DNA from: an uncultured Gammaproteobacteria bacterium
GTDB lineage: Bacteria; Pseudomonadota; Gammaproteobacteria; Francisellales; CACEW01
Length of the DNA: 64,000 bases
NCBI GenBank assembly: GCA_902563055.1
Contig: CACEWE010000002.1
Location: 19,093 to 83,092, forward strand
Direction: 5' to 3'
Each line of letters begins with the position of its first letter. The stretch's first letter is position 1. Below are positions 46,701-52,700 of the stretch, piece by piece. Position numbers: made by a program.

Positions 46701-49700
46701 TCCTATTATTAAGCCAGGTGGGGGTTTGGAAGAGATGATTTTTCATGATTGATAAAAAGGAGGATGGTATGGCGGAAGCTTTGTCCAAGGAATATGATTT
46801 ACATCATCACATGCGTATATTGGCGATGAATAAGCCAGGTTTGCTTTTGCGCATGAGTGCAATTATATCAAGATATTTTTTAAATATTGAAGCTATGGAG
46901 ATTTGTCCAGTTTTTGATCGAGTCTATTCACATATAAGTTTGACCCTTACTGGTGATTTTTACAGTATTTCCCAGTTTGTAAAAAAATGTGAGAAATTAA
47001 TCGATGTTTTTGTTGTTATTGATGGTGATTTTGCGCAGCTGGATGCTGATACGTTAGAATGGGCTTTGCTTAAGATACAAGATGAACCAGCGAGAATAAA
47101 TGATAGAGCATCATTATTAGACATAAGCTTTAGCAAGATAATCAAGCTGGAGCATTACAGTTTAGTATGGCTTTTTGGCTCAAAAGAACATGTTGAACAA
47201 GGCATGGAGGCTCTTAAAAGCGTTCATGTACTAGCTTGTACAAAAAACGGTGTAGCAATGTGATTCGTTTGATTAAGCTTGATGCATAAAAGTGTATAAT
47301 CCCAAAGAGAGGTGAAAAGCGATTAGTGCTTGCATACTATAGAGAAAAAGCGTATAGTACCGGCTGAATTTTAGGCACGTAGCTCAGTTGGTTAGAGTAT
47401 CACCTTGATCTTAATTTTTCTATCTAGTCTTTGTTTTGCAAAAAATATTTATATTTTATTTGCATTTAATATTGACTTTTTGTTTTTTTTTTTTATTGTT
47501 TATTGTAATATTTGTGAGATTATGAATTTTATTTTTGTATTGTTTAATTATCTAAGGAGAAATATATGCTTTATTACAATTCGCCAACTACTCATCAAAA
47601 TCCCAAGCTGAGAAAGATTTGCCTAATTATGGAAATTCTGCAATGGACTAATAAGACTGATTTTCCTGATCATGCAATAAGCACTATTGCAATTATGCAA
47701 CTTGCTGATCTTCTAGGTTCTGATCTTAATGTTTATAAGTATAATGAGATATCTTTGTTTGAATCTATTATATTTAAAGGGGAGCCTGATGGTGTTAAAT
47801 ACGCACTAGATAAAGTCAAATATGAATCAAAACGCTACCCTTCACCATTTGGTTGTCCATTTTTCAATCATTCTTCTTTTGAAAAGCGGAATTTAGATGT
47901 ATTGGATGTACTATTGCGTTATGTACGGCCAAACCGCTCTAACTCTAAGAATTTCTTTAGCATAAATGAAAAAGATCAACAAGGAAACACCCCGCTTGAC
48001 ACGGCCCTTAATAAGACTAATTTTGCTTACTTTCAAGCTAAACTTTTTCTCAACGGGGCACGATGGTCGGGCGAAATAGCACGAGCTTCGGAATCTTCTG
48101 ATAGTGAAGAGGCTTCAAGGCTTTTCCCTCCTATATTTGATTCATTGACCATATCTGAGATAGGTTCATTGATATTATCTGTGTTATCTGATTCTGACGA
48201 TGACTTTGACGATGATTTTGACGATGATACGTTCCCTGCGATACCTGCGACATCTGCGTTATCTGATTCTGACGATAATACGTCATCTGATTCTGACGAT
48301 GATACGTTGTTTGCGGTATCTGAGTTGAGTCATTCTAACGATGATACTGCTCCTGGAATAGACTAGGTTTAAAAAAGTAAATGCTAGTTTGTTTTACCTG
48401 TGTAGGCTTTCATGGGGGAAGGGAATTTTTCAGTTATAGATTTTGGGCTTCAAAAGTGCGTTATCCTACAGCGTGCATGCAGAATTTCTCTATCTGATCC
48501 TTATTTTATATAAAAAGTACTTTTACTTTCCTTGTTTATATTAAAAATAATATTGGTTTTTTTATGTTGGTTTTATTTTATTTTTGTGTTATGTTATTTG
48601 TGGTTTTTGGAAAAATGCTAATTTTTAGTTTTTATATTATTTAATTATTTAAGGAGAAATTTATGAATTATTGTGATTTGCCACCTACTACTCAAAACCG
48701 TATGTATCAGCATTTCAAGTGGGCTATAGAGCGTGCTGAAGAAGCATATAAAGATGCAGTTGAGACTCAAAAACTAACCCCATCAGAAGCTGGTTCTCAT
48801 GGTATAATGTCTTTTTTTGCTGATATGAAAAAAAATCCTGAGACTCAAGATATAGTGTGCTTTAAATTATTGGGCATCTATAAAAACCAAGCATCTAATA
48901 ATGAAAAAATGTTGGAAGTCATGAAGGGGTTTTATTGTAAAGCTGATCCTGGTTTTATTCCTAAACCTAAAACTGGCTCTATTATTGAGGATGATATCGC
49001 TGTGGAGGAAGACCCTGTTCTTGCTAGAGTTAGGGAAATCCTAGGGGATAGTAGTAAAGCTTCTTTTTCTTTTAGAATAAGTACTGATGATGTTAAAAAA
49101 CTTGTTGATGCTCTTGCTGCTGATCTTAATATATTGAAGTATAATAACATGTCTTTATTTGAACATATAATAATGAAAGGTGAGGCTAAAGGTGTGCAAT
49201 ACGCACTAGAAAAGGTCGAATATAAATCAGATAAATATCGTACGCCATTTAATAATCCGTTTTTCAATGGTCCTTCTTTTAAAGAACGGAATTTAGAAGT
49301 ATTGGATGTACTGTTAAGTTATACAGTTCCAGGTCGCAAAAATTTCTTTGATATAAATCAAGAAGATAGTCAAGGAAAGACCCCGCTTGATAAAGCCAGT
49401 TCTAAATGTGATTTTGAATACTTTGCAGATAAACTACGTGACAATGGGGCATTAGAGTCGTTGGAAAAAAAAGAACAAGGTTCGGCATCATCTACTAGTG
49501 CAGAGGCTTCTGCGCTTGACCTTAGTGCGGTTTCTTTATTGAGGTTTTCTGGTCCTGGCGTTGATAGTACTCAAGGAATGGAATTAGATTAAAAAAATAA
49601 ATGCCAGTTTATTTTACCTGTATGGGCTTTCTTGGGGGAGGGGGCTTTATCAGGTATGGGTTTTGGGCTTCAAAAGTGCGCTATCCTACAGTATACATGC

Positions 49701-52700
49701 AGAATTTATCTATCTGATCCTTAGCTTTGGATGAAATAGCAAAGATATGTATTGCTTCTAAGGGGGAGTGAATTTTTATCGGGGGTGAAAAGCGATTAGT
49801 GCTTGCATACTATAGAGAAAAAGCGTATAATACCGGCTGAATTTTAGGCACGTAGCTCAGTTGGTTAGAGTATCACCTTGACATGGTGGGGGTCGTTGGT
49901 TCAAATCCAATCGTGCCTACCAGCTACATATAGGCACCTTTAGGGTGCTTTTTTGTGTTTTAGAGATGGATAAAAAAGGAGTGGTAAAGTGGTAGAAATT
50001 ACCTTACCAGATGGCAACACCTTATCGTGGGATACGCATCCTACAGGCTTTGCTGTGGCTGAAAAAATTGCCCCTTCTTTGGCAAAGGCAGCAATTGCGG
50101 TGATGGTTGATGATGAACTTAGAGATCTTCATGCGCCCATTACAGCTTCGGCAAAACTTCGCATTATCACAGCAAAAGATCCAGAAGCTTTGGAAATTAT
50201 CCGTCATTCTAGTGCCCACTTATTAGCCCAGGCGGTAAAACGTTTATATCCTTCTGTTCAGGTAACGATTGGTCCTGTGATAGAAAATGGTTTTTACTAT
50301 GACTTTTCTTTTGAGCGTGGTTTTACTCCTGAGGATCTTGAGAAAATTCAACAGACCATGAAAAAAATCGTTAAAGAGGGTCTGCAAGTTGAGCGTTATA
50401 CGCTCTCACGCGATGAAGCTATAGCGTTTTTTAAATCGCAAGGTGAACATTACAAGGCAGAAATTATTGCTGATATTCCTCAGGATGAAATACTTTCTTT
50501 GTATCGCCAAGGCGAGTTTACTGATTTGTGTCGTGGCCCGCATGTGCCAAATACCAGGTTTTTAAAAGTTTTTAAAGTGCAGCATGTTGCTGGCGCTTAT
50601 TGGCGCGGCGATCATAACAATGCGATGTTACAGCGTATTTACGGTACAGCATGGCTAAGCAAAGACGACCAAGATGCGTATTTGCATCAACTAGAAGAGG
50701 CGAAAAAACGTGATCACCGTGTATTGGCCAAACGCTTAGATTTATGGCATTTTCAAGATGTGGCTCCCGGAATTGCTTTTTTTCATCCTAATGGCGTGGC
50801 CTTATGGCGGGTGGTTGAAGATTATATGCGCGATAGCAATAATCGTTATGGTTGTGAAGAAATTAAAACTCCGCTGATTATGGATGAATCTTTGTGGCAA
50901 CAATCTGGCCATAAGAGTAAATACTCGGATGAAATGTTTGATACGGTAGTAGAAAAACGTAATTATGTGATTCGTCCAATGAATTGCCCAGGGGGTATGC
51001 AAGTTTTTAATCAGCATCTGCACTCATACCGTGATTTACCTATTCGTATGGCAGAGTTTGGCATTGTGCATAGAAATGAGCCATCTGGATCCTTACATGG
51101 TTTGATGCGCGCACGCAGCTTTACCCAGGATGATGGTCATATTTTCTGTACGGAGTCTCAGGTTCAAGAAGAAGTGATTCAAATGATTAATCAATCTTTT
51201 GAAGTGTATCGTGATTTTGGTTTTAAAGAGATTGCGGTTAAATTAGCTACCCGTCCAGAAAATCGTATTGGTGATGATGCTGTTTGGGATAAATCTGAGC
51301 AATCTTTAGAAGATGCTTTAAACGCGCATGGGGTGGCTTTTGAGTTTTTACCAGGTGAGGGTGCGTTTTACGGTCCAAAGATTGAGTTTCATATTAAAGA
51401 TGCTATTGGCAGAAGCTGGCAGTGCGGTACGATTCAAGTTGATTTTTCAATGCCAGAGCGCTTAGGTGCTGAGTATATCGATGAAAACAGTAAAAAACAG
51501 CATCCAGTGATGCTTCACCGTGCTATTGTTGGTTCCTTAGAACGCTTTATTGCAGTTGTTATTGAACATTACGCAGGATCTTTGCCCCTATGGTTGGCTC
51601 CGGTACAAATAGTTGTGCTTGGCGTGTCGCAAAAGCACGATGATTATGTTAAGAAAATAGTAGCCGATCTTAAAAAGAATGGCTTGAGAGCTCAATTTGA
51701 CTTGAGAAATGAGAAGATTGGGTATAAAATCCGCGAACATACCATCAAGCGCGTTCCATTAATGGTGGTGGCTGGTGATAAAGAAATTGAAAATCAAACC
51801 CTTACCTTAAGAACCAGAGAAGGGGATGATAAAGGTTCCATGAGCCTTGCGCAATTGCATAGCTATTGCAAAAAGGAGATGGTTTTACAATCCAAGCAGG
51901 AGGTCTTAGAAGATTGACAAGCATGAGCAAAGCTAAAAAAACTTTAGCAAATGAAAACATTCAAGCACAACGTGTGCTCCTTATTAGTGATACTGGTGAG
52001 AAACTTGGTGTAATGCCAACCAGTGAGGCACTAGATAAGGCTAGAGATAAGCAATTGGATTTAGTACAAGTATCTGCAGGTGATGCTGATCCTTGTGTTT
52101 GTAAATTAATGAATTTTGGTCGTCATTTATTTGAATTAAAGAAACAGCGTCATGAGGCCAAGCAAAAACAGAAAAAGGTACAGTTAAAAGAAATTAAAAT
52201 GCGTCCAGCAACTGATGTTGGTGATTACAATATCAAACTAAAGAAAATGAAAGGTTTTCTTGAGGATGGACACAAGGTGAAAGTAACGATTCGCTTTCGC
52301 GGTCGCGAGCTTTCCCACAAAGAATTAGGTCTTGAAATGATCAAGCGTATTGTTGATGATATGCAAGACCTAGCAACTGTTGAACAAGAAGCCAAGCTCG
52401 AAGGCAAACAAATGAGCATGGTGTTGTCTCAACAAAAGAAATAGCATCTGTAACAGGATGTTGGTATATGGCATACCTCTATGGGCTGAGCCTTTTAGGG
52501 GTACTAAAAAACAAAGGAGAAAAAAATGCCAAAAATGAAAACAAACTCAAGTGCGAAAAAACGTTTTCGCAAAACAGCGTCGGGGCAATACAAGCACCGT
52601 GCGGCAAATCGTAATCATATCTTAACCAAAAAAGCACCGAAGCGTAAACGTCAATTACGCGCGCCATCTTTGCTTCCAAAAGCATCGATTGCAGCAATTC

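What the first reader, a model, noticed from the sequence alone, without database searches (positions are those of the whole stretch)
47311..49881. Insertion bracketed by a duplicated tRNA-Val promoter plus 5' half, breaking inside the anticodon (mirror image of classical tRNA islands)
A 98-bp segment occurs twice, at 47311-47408 and 49784-49881, with 97/98 identity. It comprises about 19 bp upstream of the promoter, the TTGCAT-N17-TATAAT promoter, the leader, and tRNA-Val positions 1-36. The left copy stops after GA of the GAC anticodon. The right copy continues into the complete tRNA. The 2,375 bp between them carry two ankyrin-like genes and no integrase. Established knowledge: tyrosine-integrase islands that target tRNA genes (often crossing over in the anticodon or T loop) duplicate the 3' part of the tRNA and leave the intact gene on the integrase-proximal side. 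Here it is the 5' part plus the promoter that is duplicated, and the intact gene lies distal. The mechanism is therefore atypical. It could be an element whose attP mimics the 5' half, a decayed island that has lost its integrase, or a duplication/recombination event. One consequence is that a nearly intact strong tRNA promoter (-10 now TATAGT) points into the island, about 200 nt upstream of ankyrin-like gene A (promoter capture).
Basis: partly seen in the sequence, partly recalled or inferred. Interest (0 to 1): 0.72.

Follow-up and report, generated by a model that had tools for sequence, protein, structure and literature searches.

The report
tRNA-Val promoter/5' half duplication flanking two orphan genes
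A 98-base copy of the tRNA-Val promoter plus the first 36 bases of the tRNA sits 2.4 kb upstream of the intact gene and brackets two orphan paralogous genes with no integrase; this is a real, recent rearrangement scar of a rare but known type, and its origin cannot be settled from this one genome.

Summary
Bases 47311-47408 and 49784-49881 are a 97/98 direct repeat made of 19 nt, TTGCAT-N17-TATAAT (TATAGT in the left copy), a leader and tRNA-Val(GAC) bases 1-36. Only the right copy continues into an intact tRNA. That tRNA lies directly upstream of thrS, which is the conserved ancestral position.

The 2,375 nt between the repeats are a slice of a tandem gene-module array: p0-leader-A-tail(p1)-leader-B-tail(p2)-truncated leader. 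A and B are diverged paralogues (53% aa identity, dS 0.42). They have no homologue among 1.84 billion representative proteins and only one recognisable ankyrin-type motif. No integrase or transposase domain was found in any scanned ORF of the window.

The repeat (1% divergence) is far younger than the A/B split. The "mirror image" layout is rare but known: 159 of 3,919 Islander islands have a 5' tDNA fragment.

No close relative exists in any collection (ThrS at most 67% identical), so no empty site could be examined. I slightly favour an integrase-independent local rearrangement that placed the tRNA promoter in front of gene A (about 0.36). A decayed or trans-mobilised 5'-type tRNA islet is almost as likely (about 0.32). 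Interest is modest.

The parts
46745..47263 (+). ilvH-like gene (divergent acetolactate synthase small subunit); left chromosomal flank
   Evidence: Pfam ACT_AHAS_ss 1.8e-08. NCBIfam acetolactate synthase small subunit, 58.5 bits against a cut-off of 119.
47264..47310 (.). 47-nt spacer between the ilvH stop and the left repeat; its right end is junction J0 (47310|47311)
   Evidence: No similarity to the sequence left of the right repeat. No terminator-like site.
47311..47408 (+). R_L, left copy of the 98-nt repeat
   Evidence: (D5), 97/98 identical to 49784-49881.
47330..47358 (+). Promoter copy TTGCAT-N17-TATAGT (mismatch at 47357), followed by the GC-rich ACCGGC
   Evidence: Read. The same architecture occurs upstream of all four tRNA genes.
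47373..47408 (+). tRNA-Val 5' fragment, bases 1-36, ending after GA of the anticodon
   Evidence: 36/36 identical to the 5' end of the intact tRNA. Not called as a tRNA.
47409..47412 (.). TCTT, 4 nt between the repeat and p0 (junction J1; filler or diverged tail)
   Evidence: Alignment; local alignment.
47413..47437 (+). p0, a diverged copy of the last 25 nt of a module tail (AATTTTTCTATCTAGTC...)
   Evidence: Local alignment beats shuffles (reached by 9/2000 and 0/2000). AATTTnTCTATCT occurs only 3 times in the window.
47438..47565 (+). AT-rich leader 1 with AAGGAG ribosome-binding site and a promoter-like site (47472-47499)
47566..48366 (+). Gene A, 266 aa orphan with one ankyrin-type motif and a Ser/Asp-rich repetitive C-terminus
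   Evidence: repeat families D4 and D7.
48367..48503 (+). Tail 1, conserved 3' non-coding element ending in p1 (48479-48503)
   Evidence: 83% identical to tail 2; last 63 nt are 92% identical.
48504..48662 (+). Leader 2 with AAGGAG ribosome-binding site
   Evidence: (D6).
48663..49592 (+). Gene B, 309 aa orphan paralogue of A
   Evidence: 53% identity over 153 aa, E 3e-47. dN/dS 0.87, dS 0.42.
49593..49723 (+). Tail 2 ending in p2 (49699-49723)
   Evidence: (D2).
49724..49783 (+). 60-nt spacer whose start resembles the start of a leader (a truncated third module); its right end is junction J2 (49783|49784)
   Evidence: the p0-leader1 alignment extends past p2 into the spacer.
49784..49881 (+). 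R_R, right copy of the 98-nt repeat; promoter TTGCAT (49803-49808)-N17-TATAAT (49826-49831)
49846..49922 (+). Intact tRNA-Val(GAC)
   Evidence: ARAGORN; Rfam tRNA 66.1 bits.
49932..49950 (+). Terminator-like hairpin plus T run after the tRNA
49989..51917 (+). thrS; right chromosomal flank, conserved neighbour of tRNA-Val

Best explanation
R_L is not an attachment site of a mobile element. It is a recent copy of this locus's own DNA, made by an integrase-independent rearrangement.

The two-gene block was already resident upstream of tRNA-Val as the right-hand end of a tandem array of [leader-gene-tail] modules. A segment running from inside a module tail (p0) to the middle of the tRNA-Val gene was duplicated in tandem. 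This created the junction 'tRNA base 36 | TCTT-p0' and put the downstream tRNA promoter in front of gene A. The redundant upstream copy was then deleted down to 62 nt before the tRNA start. Alternatively, both steps happened at once as a template-switch event that copied 98 nt as filler at a deletion joint.

The net result is ilvH - promoter + tRNA 5' half - A - B - promoter + intact tRNA-Val - thrS. The consequence is that a slightly weakened stable-RNA promoter (TATAGT) can read through 208 nt, with no terminator-like site, into gene A.

Shown here: the anatomy, the relative ages, and the absence of recombinase genes. Inferred: that the block is native, the order of events, and any transcription.
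For: 1. Among the scanned ORFs of the 64-kb window (29 of at least 110 aa), none carries a recombinase or mobile-element domain. A and B have no PHROG, NCBIfam, plasmid, phage or viral-contig match.
2. The repeat includes 62 nt of non-conserved promoter and upstream DNA at 61/62 identity with sharp edges. This is what a copy of the locus itself gives, and it is not required of an independent attP.
3. The sequences abutting the repeat on the inside are slices of the module array: p0 is the last 25 nt of a tail, and the spacer is the first ~60 nt of a leader. They do not look like evolved att arms.
4. p0 is 36% diverged from p1 and p2, while the repeat copies are 1% diverged and A/B have dS 0.42. 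An old array therefore existed before a recent junction formed.
5. A and B have the same GC and GC3 as the other orphan genes of the window, so composition gives no sign of foreign origin.
6. Only 4 of the 7 anticodon-loop bases are shared by the two copies (TTGATCT against TTGACAT), which fits poorly with a 7-nt loop overlap.
7. There is an experimental precedent: spontaneous tandem duplications in E. coli recruit a downstream rrn promoter to activate an upstream gene, often at microhomologies (PMC6614815). The rnk-citT case is cited there.
Against: - There is no second recent copy of the A-B block in the window, and each protein is recorded on one contig only. A second event (deletion) or a complex single event must therefore be assumed.
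- A breakpoint in the centre of the anticodon loop is what tyrosine integrases produce, and under this model it is a coincidence of a few percent.
- Most tRNA gene fragments in genomes do come from integrative elements (PMC9897764).
- No microhomology could be demonstrated at either junction, because the lost partner sequences are unknown.
- Whether the block is native cannot be checked without related genomes.
Confidence: 0.36

Rival explanations
1. A 5'-type tRNA-gene islet. A small integrative element, or the stump of a larger island, recombined with tRNA-Val in the anticodon loop through a tyrosine integrase that is now lost or encoded elsewhere. Its attP carried the promoter plus the 5' half, so the gene is restored on the distal side. 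R_L is attL and R_R is attR.
For: - An intact tDNA plus a cognate 5' end-fragment lies upstream in direct orientation. This is the legitimate '5' fragment' configuration of Islander, seen in 159 of 3,919 islands.
- Upstream-integrating islands exist in Klebsiella.
- The identity block ends inside the anticodon loop, the commonest crossover sublocation (2,083 of 3,919 Islander islands are anticodon-centred).
- tRNA-Val is a proven attB in the related family Francisellaceae (FhaGI-1/KIRK).
- The block starts about 19 nt upstream of the -35, just enough to carry a complete promoter.
- The segment is AT-rich and carries orphan genes.
Against: - No integrase was found in the segment or among the scanned ORFs of the 64 kb.
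- At most 4 nt of a possible P' arm lie between the crossover and array sequence. A decayed island would therefore need a deletion ending flush with the core.
- The 62 nt of lineage-specific promoter are 61/62 identical between the copies.
- Only 4 of 7 anticodon-loop bases are shared by the two copies.
- The 5' type is only 4% of mapped islands.
- None of 120 other tRNA-Val loci sharing the 29-nt 5' half carries a second copy of it.
Confidence: 0.32
2. Insertion of conspecific DNA by general recombination. A fragment [tail0'-A-B-spacer-promoter-tRNA-Val-thrS...] came from a strain in which the array natively abuts tRNA-Val. It recombined through its homologous right end and joined illegitimately at its left end inside the recipient's tRNA gene (homology-facilitated illegitimate recombination). 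Alternatively, a circle carrying the 98 nt integrated Campbell-fashion by RecA.
For: - It explains the near-perfect identity of lineage-specific promoter DNA, the sharp left edge (a synteny breakpoint between donor and recipient), the random-looking cut inside a tail, and the absence of an integrase.
- It needs only one event in this genome.
- The region upstream of tRNA-Val is variable across relatives while tRNA-Val-thrS is conserved.
Against: - No donor-type arrangement is known.
- The anticodon-loop breakpoint is again a coincidence.
- Competence or conjugation in this organism is unknown.
- No microhomology is demonstrable at 47408|47409.
Confidence: 0.18
3. Relic of two complete tRNA-Val genes. 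A second full copy (promoter plus gene) once lay left of the array and lost its 3' half, together with upstream modules, by deletion. Identity between the copies is maintained by gene conversion.
For: - Direct repeats 2.4 kb apart can undergo gene conversion.
- p0 shows that the array once extended further left.
Against: - It needs an earlier duplication of exactly promoter plus gene.
- The edges are sharp, with no decayed homology beyond the 98 nt on either side.
- It is essentially a less parsimonious form of the best explanation.
Confidence: 0.08
4. Assembly artefact: a chromosome with an empty site plus a separate 2.47-kb circle or variant allele, mis-joined through the 98-nt repeat.
For: With k-mers shorter than 98 nt, the assembly graph at the repeat is ambiguous between the integrated form and 'empty site plus circle'. 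The source is a draft contig of 111 kb.
Against: The G/A difference lies near the middle of the repeat (46 and 51 nt from its edges). This allows phasing with k of about 55 or more, and the assembler linked G to the A-side junction and A to the intact tRNA. All four junction sequences must exist in the reads in any case, so the duplication itself is real.
Confidence: 0.03

Closest known systems
tDNA genomic islands with a displaced 5' tDNA fragment (Islander database class; 159 of 3,919 islands, PMC4383910)
   Same: An intact tRNA gene plus a direct 5' end-fragment upstream brackets a foreign-looking segment. The break is in the anticodon region. The segment is longer than 2 kb.
   Different: Islander islands must contain a tyrosine integrase, and this segment has none. 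The identity block also runs 62 nt upstream of the tRNA into promoter DNA, and no att arms are recognisable.
Klebsiella pneumoniae arg2A-VII-type islands that integrate upstream of the tRNA gene (bioRxiv 2020.11.02.365908)
   Same: The inserted segment lies upstream of the restored tRNA gene.
   Different: Those islands carry clade I.d integrases and use the D-loop sublocation. Here the break is in the anticodon and there is no integrase.
FhaGI-1 / phage vB_FhiM_KIRK in Francisella hispaniensis (PMC5861138, PMC7924643)
   Same: It targets tRNA-Val and comes from the family of the closest relatives of this genome (ThrS 60-67% identical).
   Different: It has the classical orientation: attL is the full tRNA, attR is a 47-bp 3' end fragment, and a 34-kb prophage with an integrase lies next to attR. 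No 3' fragment or prophage is present here.
Promoter capture by tandem duplication (rnk-citT in the Lenski Cit+ lineage; capture of a downstream rrn promoter, PMC6614815)
   Same: A promoter plus the 5' part of the downstream gene is copied in front of an upstream gene, while the intact downstream gene is retained. A stable-RNA promoter is the one captured.
   Different: Those cases keep two recent copies of the captured gene. Here only one A-B block remains, so a further deletion or a complex event is required. Expression was not measured here.
Cis-mobilisable elements (att-flanked, integrase-less derivatives of integrative elements; from my own knowledge of Streptococcus thermophilus CIMEs)
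   Same: A small cargo segment lies between two att-like direct repeats, without its own integrase.
   Different: CIMEs are defined by a cognate ICE integrase acting on their att sites. No such partner is known here.

Membership tests
tDNA-integrated genomic island (Islander criteria) | Intact tDNA and a cognate tDNA end-fragment in the same orientation flanking the segment | tested here: met
   intact tRNA-Val at 49846-49922; fragment of bases 1-36 at 47373-47408; direct orientation.
tDNA-integrated genomic island (Islander criteria) | Allowed configuration (5' fragment upstream, or 3' fragment downstream, of the tDNA) | tested here: met
   The 5' fragment lies upstream. The rule is quoted from PMC4383910.
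tDNA-integrated genomic island (Islander criteria) | A tyrosine integrase gene inside or overlapping the segment | tested here: not met
   Only genes A and B lie inside and neither has a recombinase domain. None was found among the scanned ORFs of the 64-kb window.
tDNA-integrated genomic island (Islander criteria) | Crossover at a preferred sublocation (anticodon loop, T loop or 3' junction), with the overlap shared by both att sites | tested here: inconclusive
   The identity ends after anticodon base 2, inside the loop. However, only 4 of the 7 loop bases are common to both copies (TTGATCT against TTGACAT).
tDNA-integrated genomic island (Islander criteria) | Empty attB in relatives, or an excised circle carrying attP | not testable with these tools
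   No genome or metagenome contig closer than 67% ThrS identity. No read data.
Promoter capture by tandem duplication | A novel junction places a promoter plus the 5' part of the downstream gene in front of another gene, and the intact donor gene is retained | tested here: met
   the promoter copy at 47330-47358 lies 208 nt before the gene A ATG, with no terminator-like site between. The intact tRNA is retained.
Promoter capture by tandem duplication | Two recent tandem copies of the captured segment | tested here: not met
   There is only one A-B block. A and B are old paralogues (dS 0.42). No other copy exists in the window, and each protein is on one contig.
Promoter capture by tandem duplication | Transcription from the captured promoter into the gene | not testable with these tools
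   Needs 5'-RACE or RNA-seq.
Ankyrin-repeat proteins (Pfam clan Ank) | Ank-family match above the curated threshold, or tandem 33-residue repeats | tested here: not met
   Ank_4 scores 14.0 and 14.9 bits against a cut-off of 22.7. A profile of the A/B domain hits generic ankyrin proteins only through positions ~110-150, i.e. one repeat motif. The AF2 model is unusable (pLDDT 43).

The most novel reading that the evidence does not exclude
The 2,473-nt unit (A-B block plus one repeat) is a minimal integrase-less mobile cassette. Its attP is a copy of the host tRNA-Val promoter and 5' half. It is moved in trans by a tRNA-Val-specific integrase encoded elsewhere, and on integration it both rebuilds the tRNA gene and leaves the displaced host tRNA promoter driving its cargo of host-interaction genes.
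Probability: 0.1. Interest if true: 0.65.

Novelty: new member of a known kind. Interest (0 to 1): 0.3.

Why it matters
The locus is a clean natural example of a strong stable-RNA promoter being copied in front of fast-evolving orphan genes in a poorly sampled lineage. That lineage is related to Francisellaceae and shows some features seen in host-associated bacteria. Two 98-nt direct repeats that differ at one base make the structure potentially reversible by recombination.

If integrase-dependent mobility were shown, it would document how a 5'-type element solves the promoter problem that is thought to explain why elements almost always restore the 3' part of tRNA genes. If it is a duplication scar, it is a fixed wild counterpart of the promoter-capture events seen in laboratory evolution.

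Either way it is a single-locus curiosity. It does not open a major question.

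Tried and rejected
**Searches for an empty site or a close relative (all negative)**
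- A thrS-based scan of 185,579 species genomes gave a best hit of 60%.
- A scan of metagenome contigs with the 29-nt tRNA 5' half returned 120 loci, none close (ThrS at most 57%), and each carried the motif once.
- A scan of viral contigs gave 0 hits.
- A protein search with ThrS gave a best hit of 67%, in Francisellaceae/Thiotrichales. Three of the closest contigs have different upstream neighbours.
- An exact look-up of ilvH and gene B on contigs returned no record.
- ilvIH was not found within 10 kb of thrS in any of 84 related loci.

**Searches for homologues of A and B (all negative)**
- The word-index search returned only B itself.
- The profile search of 1.84 billion representatives returned only generic ankyrin proteins.
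- PHROGs and NCBIfam gave nothing.
- Plasmid and phage DNA searches matched the tRNA only.
- Viral contigs gave nothing.

**Structure and RNA**
- The single-sequence AF2 model had pLDDT 43 and was not used for fold search.
- For the conserved tails, no Rfam family matched, the two-sequence consensus fold was unconvincing, and no conserved small ORF was evident.

**Ideas considered and dropped**
- An integron-like cassette array with p as the recombination site: p has no dyad symmetry, and p0 is only 64% identical to p1 and p2.
- A 98-bp target-site duplication by a transposase: no such enzyme is present and the length is implausible.
- An RNA-mediated origin: the repeat includes the untranscribed promoter.
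- Similarity between p and the tRNA anticodon arm: only short, chance-level matches by eye.

Full report
**Observation**

The 98-nt direct repeat is real. Bases 47311-47408 and 49784-49881 are 97/98 identical and lie 2,473 nt apart (D5; sequence). Each copy reads as follows:
- 19 nt;
- TTGCAT, 17 nt, then TATAAT (TATAGT in the left copy, with G at 47357 against A at 49830);
- ACCGGCTGAATTTT;
- the first 36 nt of tRNA-Val(GAC).

Only the right copy continues into a complete tRNA at 49846-49922 (ARAGORN; Rfam tRNA 66 bits). A terminator-like hairpin follows at 49932-49950. The left copy stops after GA of the anticodon. Identity ends abruptly on both sides, and nothing else in the 64 kb resembles the repeat beyond the generic tRNA D-arm.

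The generic promoter scan did not list the TTGCAT-N17-TATAAT site, because its -35 matches only 3 of 6. However, the four tRNA genes of the window (Thr, Met, Val, Pro) all have a TTGnnn-N17-(T/G)ATAA(T/A) motif ending 8-14 nt before the mature 5' end. The promoter assignment is therefore reasonable.

**What lies between the copies**

There are two ORFs with perfect AAGGAG ribosome-binding sites: A (47566-48366, 266 aa) and B (48663-49592, 309 aa). They are paralogues, 53% identical over 153 residues. Their divergence is dS 0.42, dN 0.36, dN/dS 0.87.

Each gene sits in a module made of an AT-rich leader, the gene, and a conserved non-coding tail. The tails are 83% identical overall and 92% over the last 63 nt, which is more conserved than synonymous sites.

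The last ~25 nt of the tail (motif p, AATTTnTCTATCT...) occur three times:
- p1 at 48479-48503;
- p2 at 49699-49723;
- p0, a diverged copy, at 47413-47437, only 4 nt (TCTT) after the tRNA break.

The p0 homology is significant: 9/2000 and 0/2000 shuffles reach the observed score, and the 13-nt core occurs only at these three places in the window. The 60-nt spacer left of the right repeat begins like a leader.

The insert is therefore a slice of a tandem module array, two periods plus about 85 nt. It is cut inside a tail on the left and inside a leader on the right.

**Nature of the genes**

- Pfam gives only sub-threshold Ank_4 hits, 14-15 bits against a cut-off of 22.7.
- A profile of the shared domain searched against 1.84 billion representative proteins finds only A and B as family members. 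The generic ankyrin-repeat proteins it also finds match through profile positions ~110-150 only, i.e. one repeat motif.
- PHROGs, NCBIfam, plasmid, phage and viral-contig searches are negative.
- The single-sequence AlphaFold model is unusable (pLDDT 43).
- The GC (36-38%) and GC3 of A and B match those of the other large orphan ORFs of the window rather than the housekeeping genes at 41-43%.

"Ankyrin-like" is thus a weak label. The two genes are lineage-specific orphans.

**Context and organism**

The flanks are rnr, an MFS transporter gene, ilvI and a divergent ilvH on the left, and thrS-infC-rpmI-rplT-pheST on the right. None of the ORFs of at least 110 aa that were scanned (29, covering the window outside the core translation genes) has an integrase or transposase domain.

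The nearest ThrS sequences are from Francisellaceae/Thiotrichales at 60-67% identity. All window proteins examined are singletons from one 111-kb NCBI contig.

tRNA-Val(GAC) immediately upstream of thrS is widely conserved: nine of the scanned gammaproteobacterial loci and the closest relative, L201. The neighbour upstream of the tRNA varies, and ilvIH is never there in 84 loci. The right, intact copy therefore sits at the ancestral place, and the zone upstream of the tRNA is evolutionarily fluid.

**Relative ages**

The repeat copies differ at 1 of 98 positions, including the functionless tRNA fragment. By contrast, A and B differ at 32% of synonymous sites, the tails at 17%, and p0 from p1 and p2 at 36%. 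Unless gene conversion homogenises the 98 nt, the repeat was created long after the array had diversified. The tail that was cut (p0) was already divergent when the junction formed.

**Comparison with what is known**

The classical rule, restoration of the 3' part of the tRNA, holds for 3,760 of 3,919 Islander islands. The other 159 have a 5' fragment, and "5' fragment upstream" is an accepted configuration (PMC4383910). Klebsiella arg2 islands of one integrase clade integrate upstream of the tRNA.

In Francisella, tRNA-Val is a proven attB, but for a classical 3'-type prophage with a 47-bp attR. The mirror image is therefore rare, not unprecedented.

Separately, spontaneous tandem duplications that recruit a downstream rrn promoter to an upstream gene have been documented experimentally (PMC6614815).

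**Mechanism**

Three junctions matter:
- J0, 47310|47311;
- J1, 47408|47409;
- J2, 49783|49784.

J1 is always novel. Exactly one of J0 and J2 is ancestral.

*Integrase reading (attL = R_L, attR = R_R).* In its favour are the general prior, the allowed configuration and the anticodon-loop breakpoint. Against it:
- there is no integrase;
- no arm sequence remains, because array slices abut the core within 0-4 nt;
- only 4 of 7 loop bases are shared;
- 62 nt of lineage-specific promoter are 61/62 identical.

*Integrase-independent readings.* These explain the last three points naturally. One version is local: a tandem duplication from p0 to tRNA base 36 followed by deletion of the upstream copy, or one template-switch event. 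The other is insertion of conspecific DNA through a homologous anchor plus an illegitimate joint. Both treat the anticodon breakpoint as a coincidence. The local version also needs a second step, because only one A-B block exists.

My estimates are:
- local rearrangement, 0.36;
- 5'-type islet, 0.32;
- conspecific DNA insertion, 0.18;
- relic of a second tRNA copy, 0.08;
- assembly artefact, 0.03.

An artefact is unlikely because the central G/A difference allows the two copies to be phased.

**Consequence**

Whatever the origin, a near-consensus stable-RNA promoter with a GC-rich discriminator now points through a 36-nt tRNA stub and 157 nt of AT-rich leader into gene A. No terminator-like site lies between them. 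Gene A also has its own promoter-like site at 47472-47499. The only difference between the two copies weakens the -10 of the left copy. Transcription is inferred, not shown.

The two 98-nt direct repeats could also delete the block by homologous recombination, which would regenerate an ilvH-tRNA-Val site.

**Verdict**

The locus is a new member of known kinds: tRNA-fragment-flanked islet, or promoter-capturing duplication scar. It is of modest interest. The question can be decided only with related genomes, read data or wet-lab tests.

Noticed in passing
48441-48503 and 49661-49723: The last 63 nt of the non-coding tails after genes A and B are 92% identical, although synonymous sites of the genes differ by 32%. 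The tail is therefore constrained or undergoing gene conversion. No Rfam match, no convincing shared fold and no conserved small ORF were found.
   Followed up: partly
48177-48342: The C-terminus of gene A consists of Ser/Asp-rich tandem repeats (units of about 24-51 nt, SDSDDD-type). Paralogue B lacks them.
   Followed up: no
2405-18128 and 22825-27642: Six large ORFs (675-1605 aa) have no Pfam domain and are not paralogous to each other. Their GC is 36-37% against 41-43% for housekeeping genes. They surround a pair of ABC-transporter genes (18268-21778).
   Followed up: partly
28735-29736: A retropepsin-like aspartyl protease gene (28957-29736; gag-asp_proteas 7e-24) lies immediately downstream of tRNA-Thr (28735-28810).
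   Followed up: no
49884-50028 (- strand): A sub-threshold Rfam hit to the Helicobacter antisense RNA family HPnc0260 (52.8 bits against gathering 59, E 2e-4). It overlaps the tRNA-Val 3' half, the terminator and the thrS start.
   Followed up: no
46745-47310: The ilvH-like gene is unusually divergent (NCBIfam 58.5 bits against a cut-off of 119). No terminator-like site lies in the 47 nt between its stop codon and the left repeat.
   Followed up: partly
L201 16869-17941 and 1-1413: The closest related contig (ThrS 67% identical) carries a multi-repeat ankyrin protein gene and IS66-family transposase genes within 8 kb of its tRNA-Val-thrS locus. There is no tRNA fragment there.
   Followed up: no
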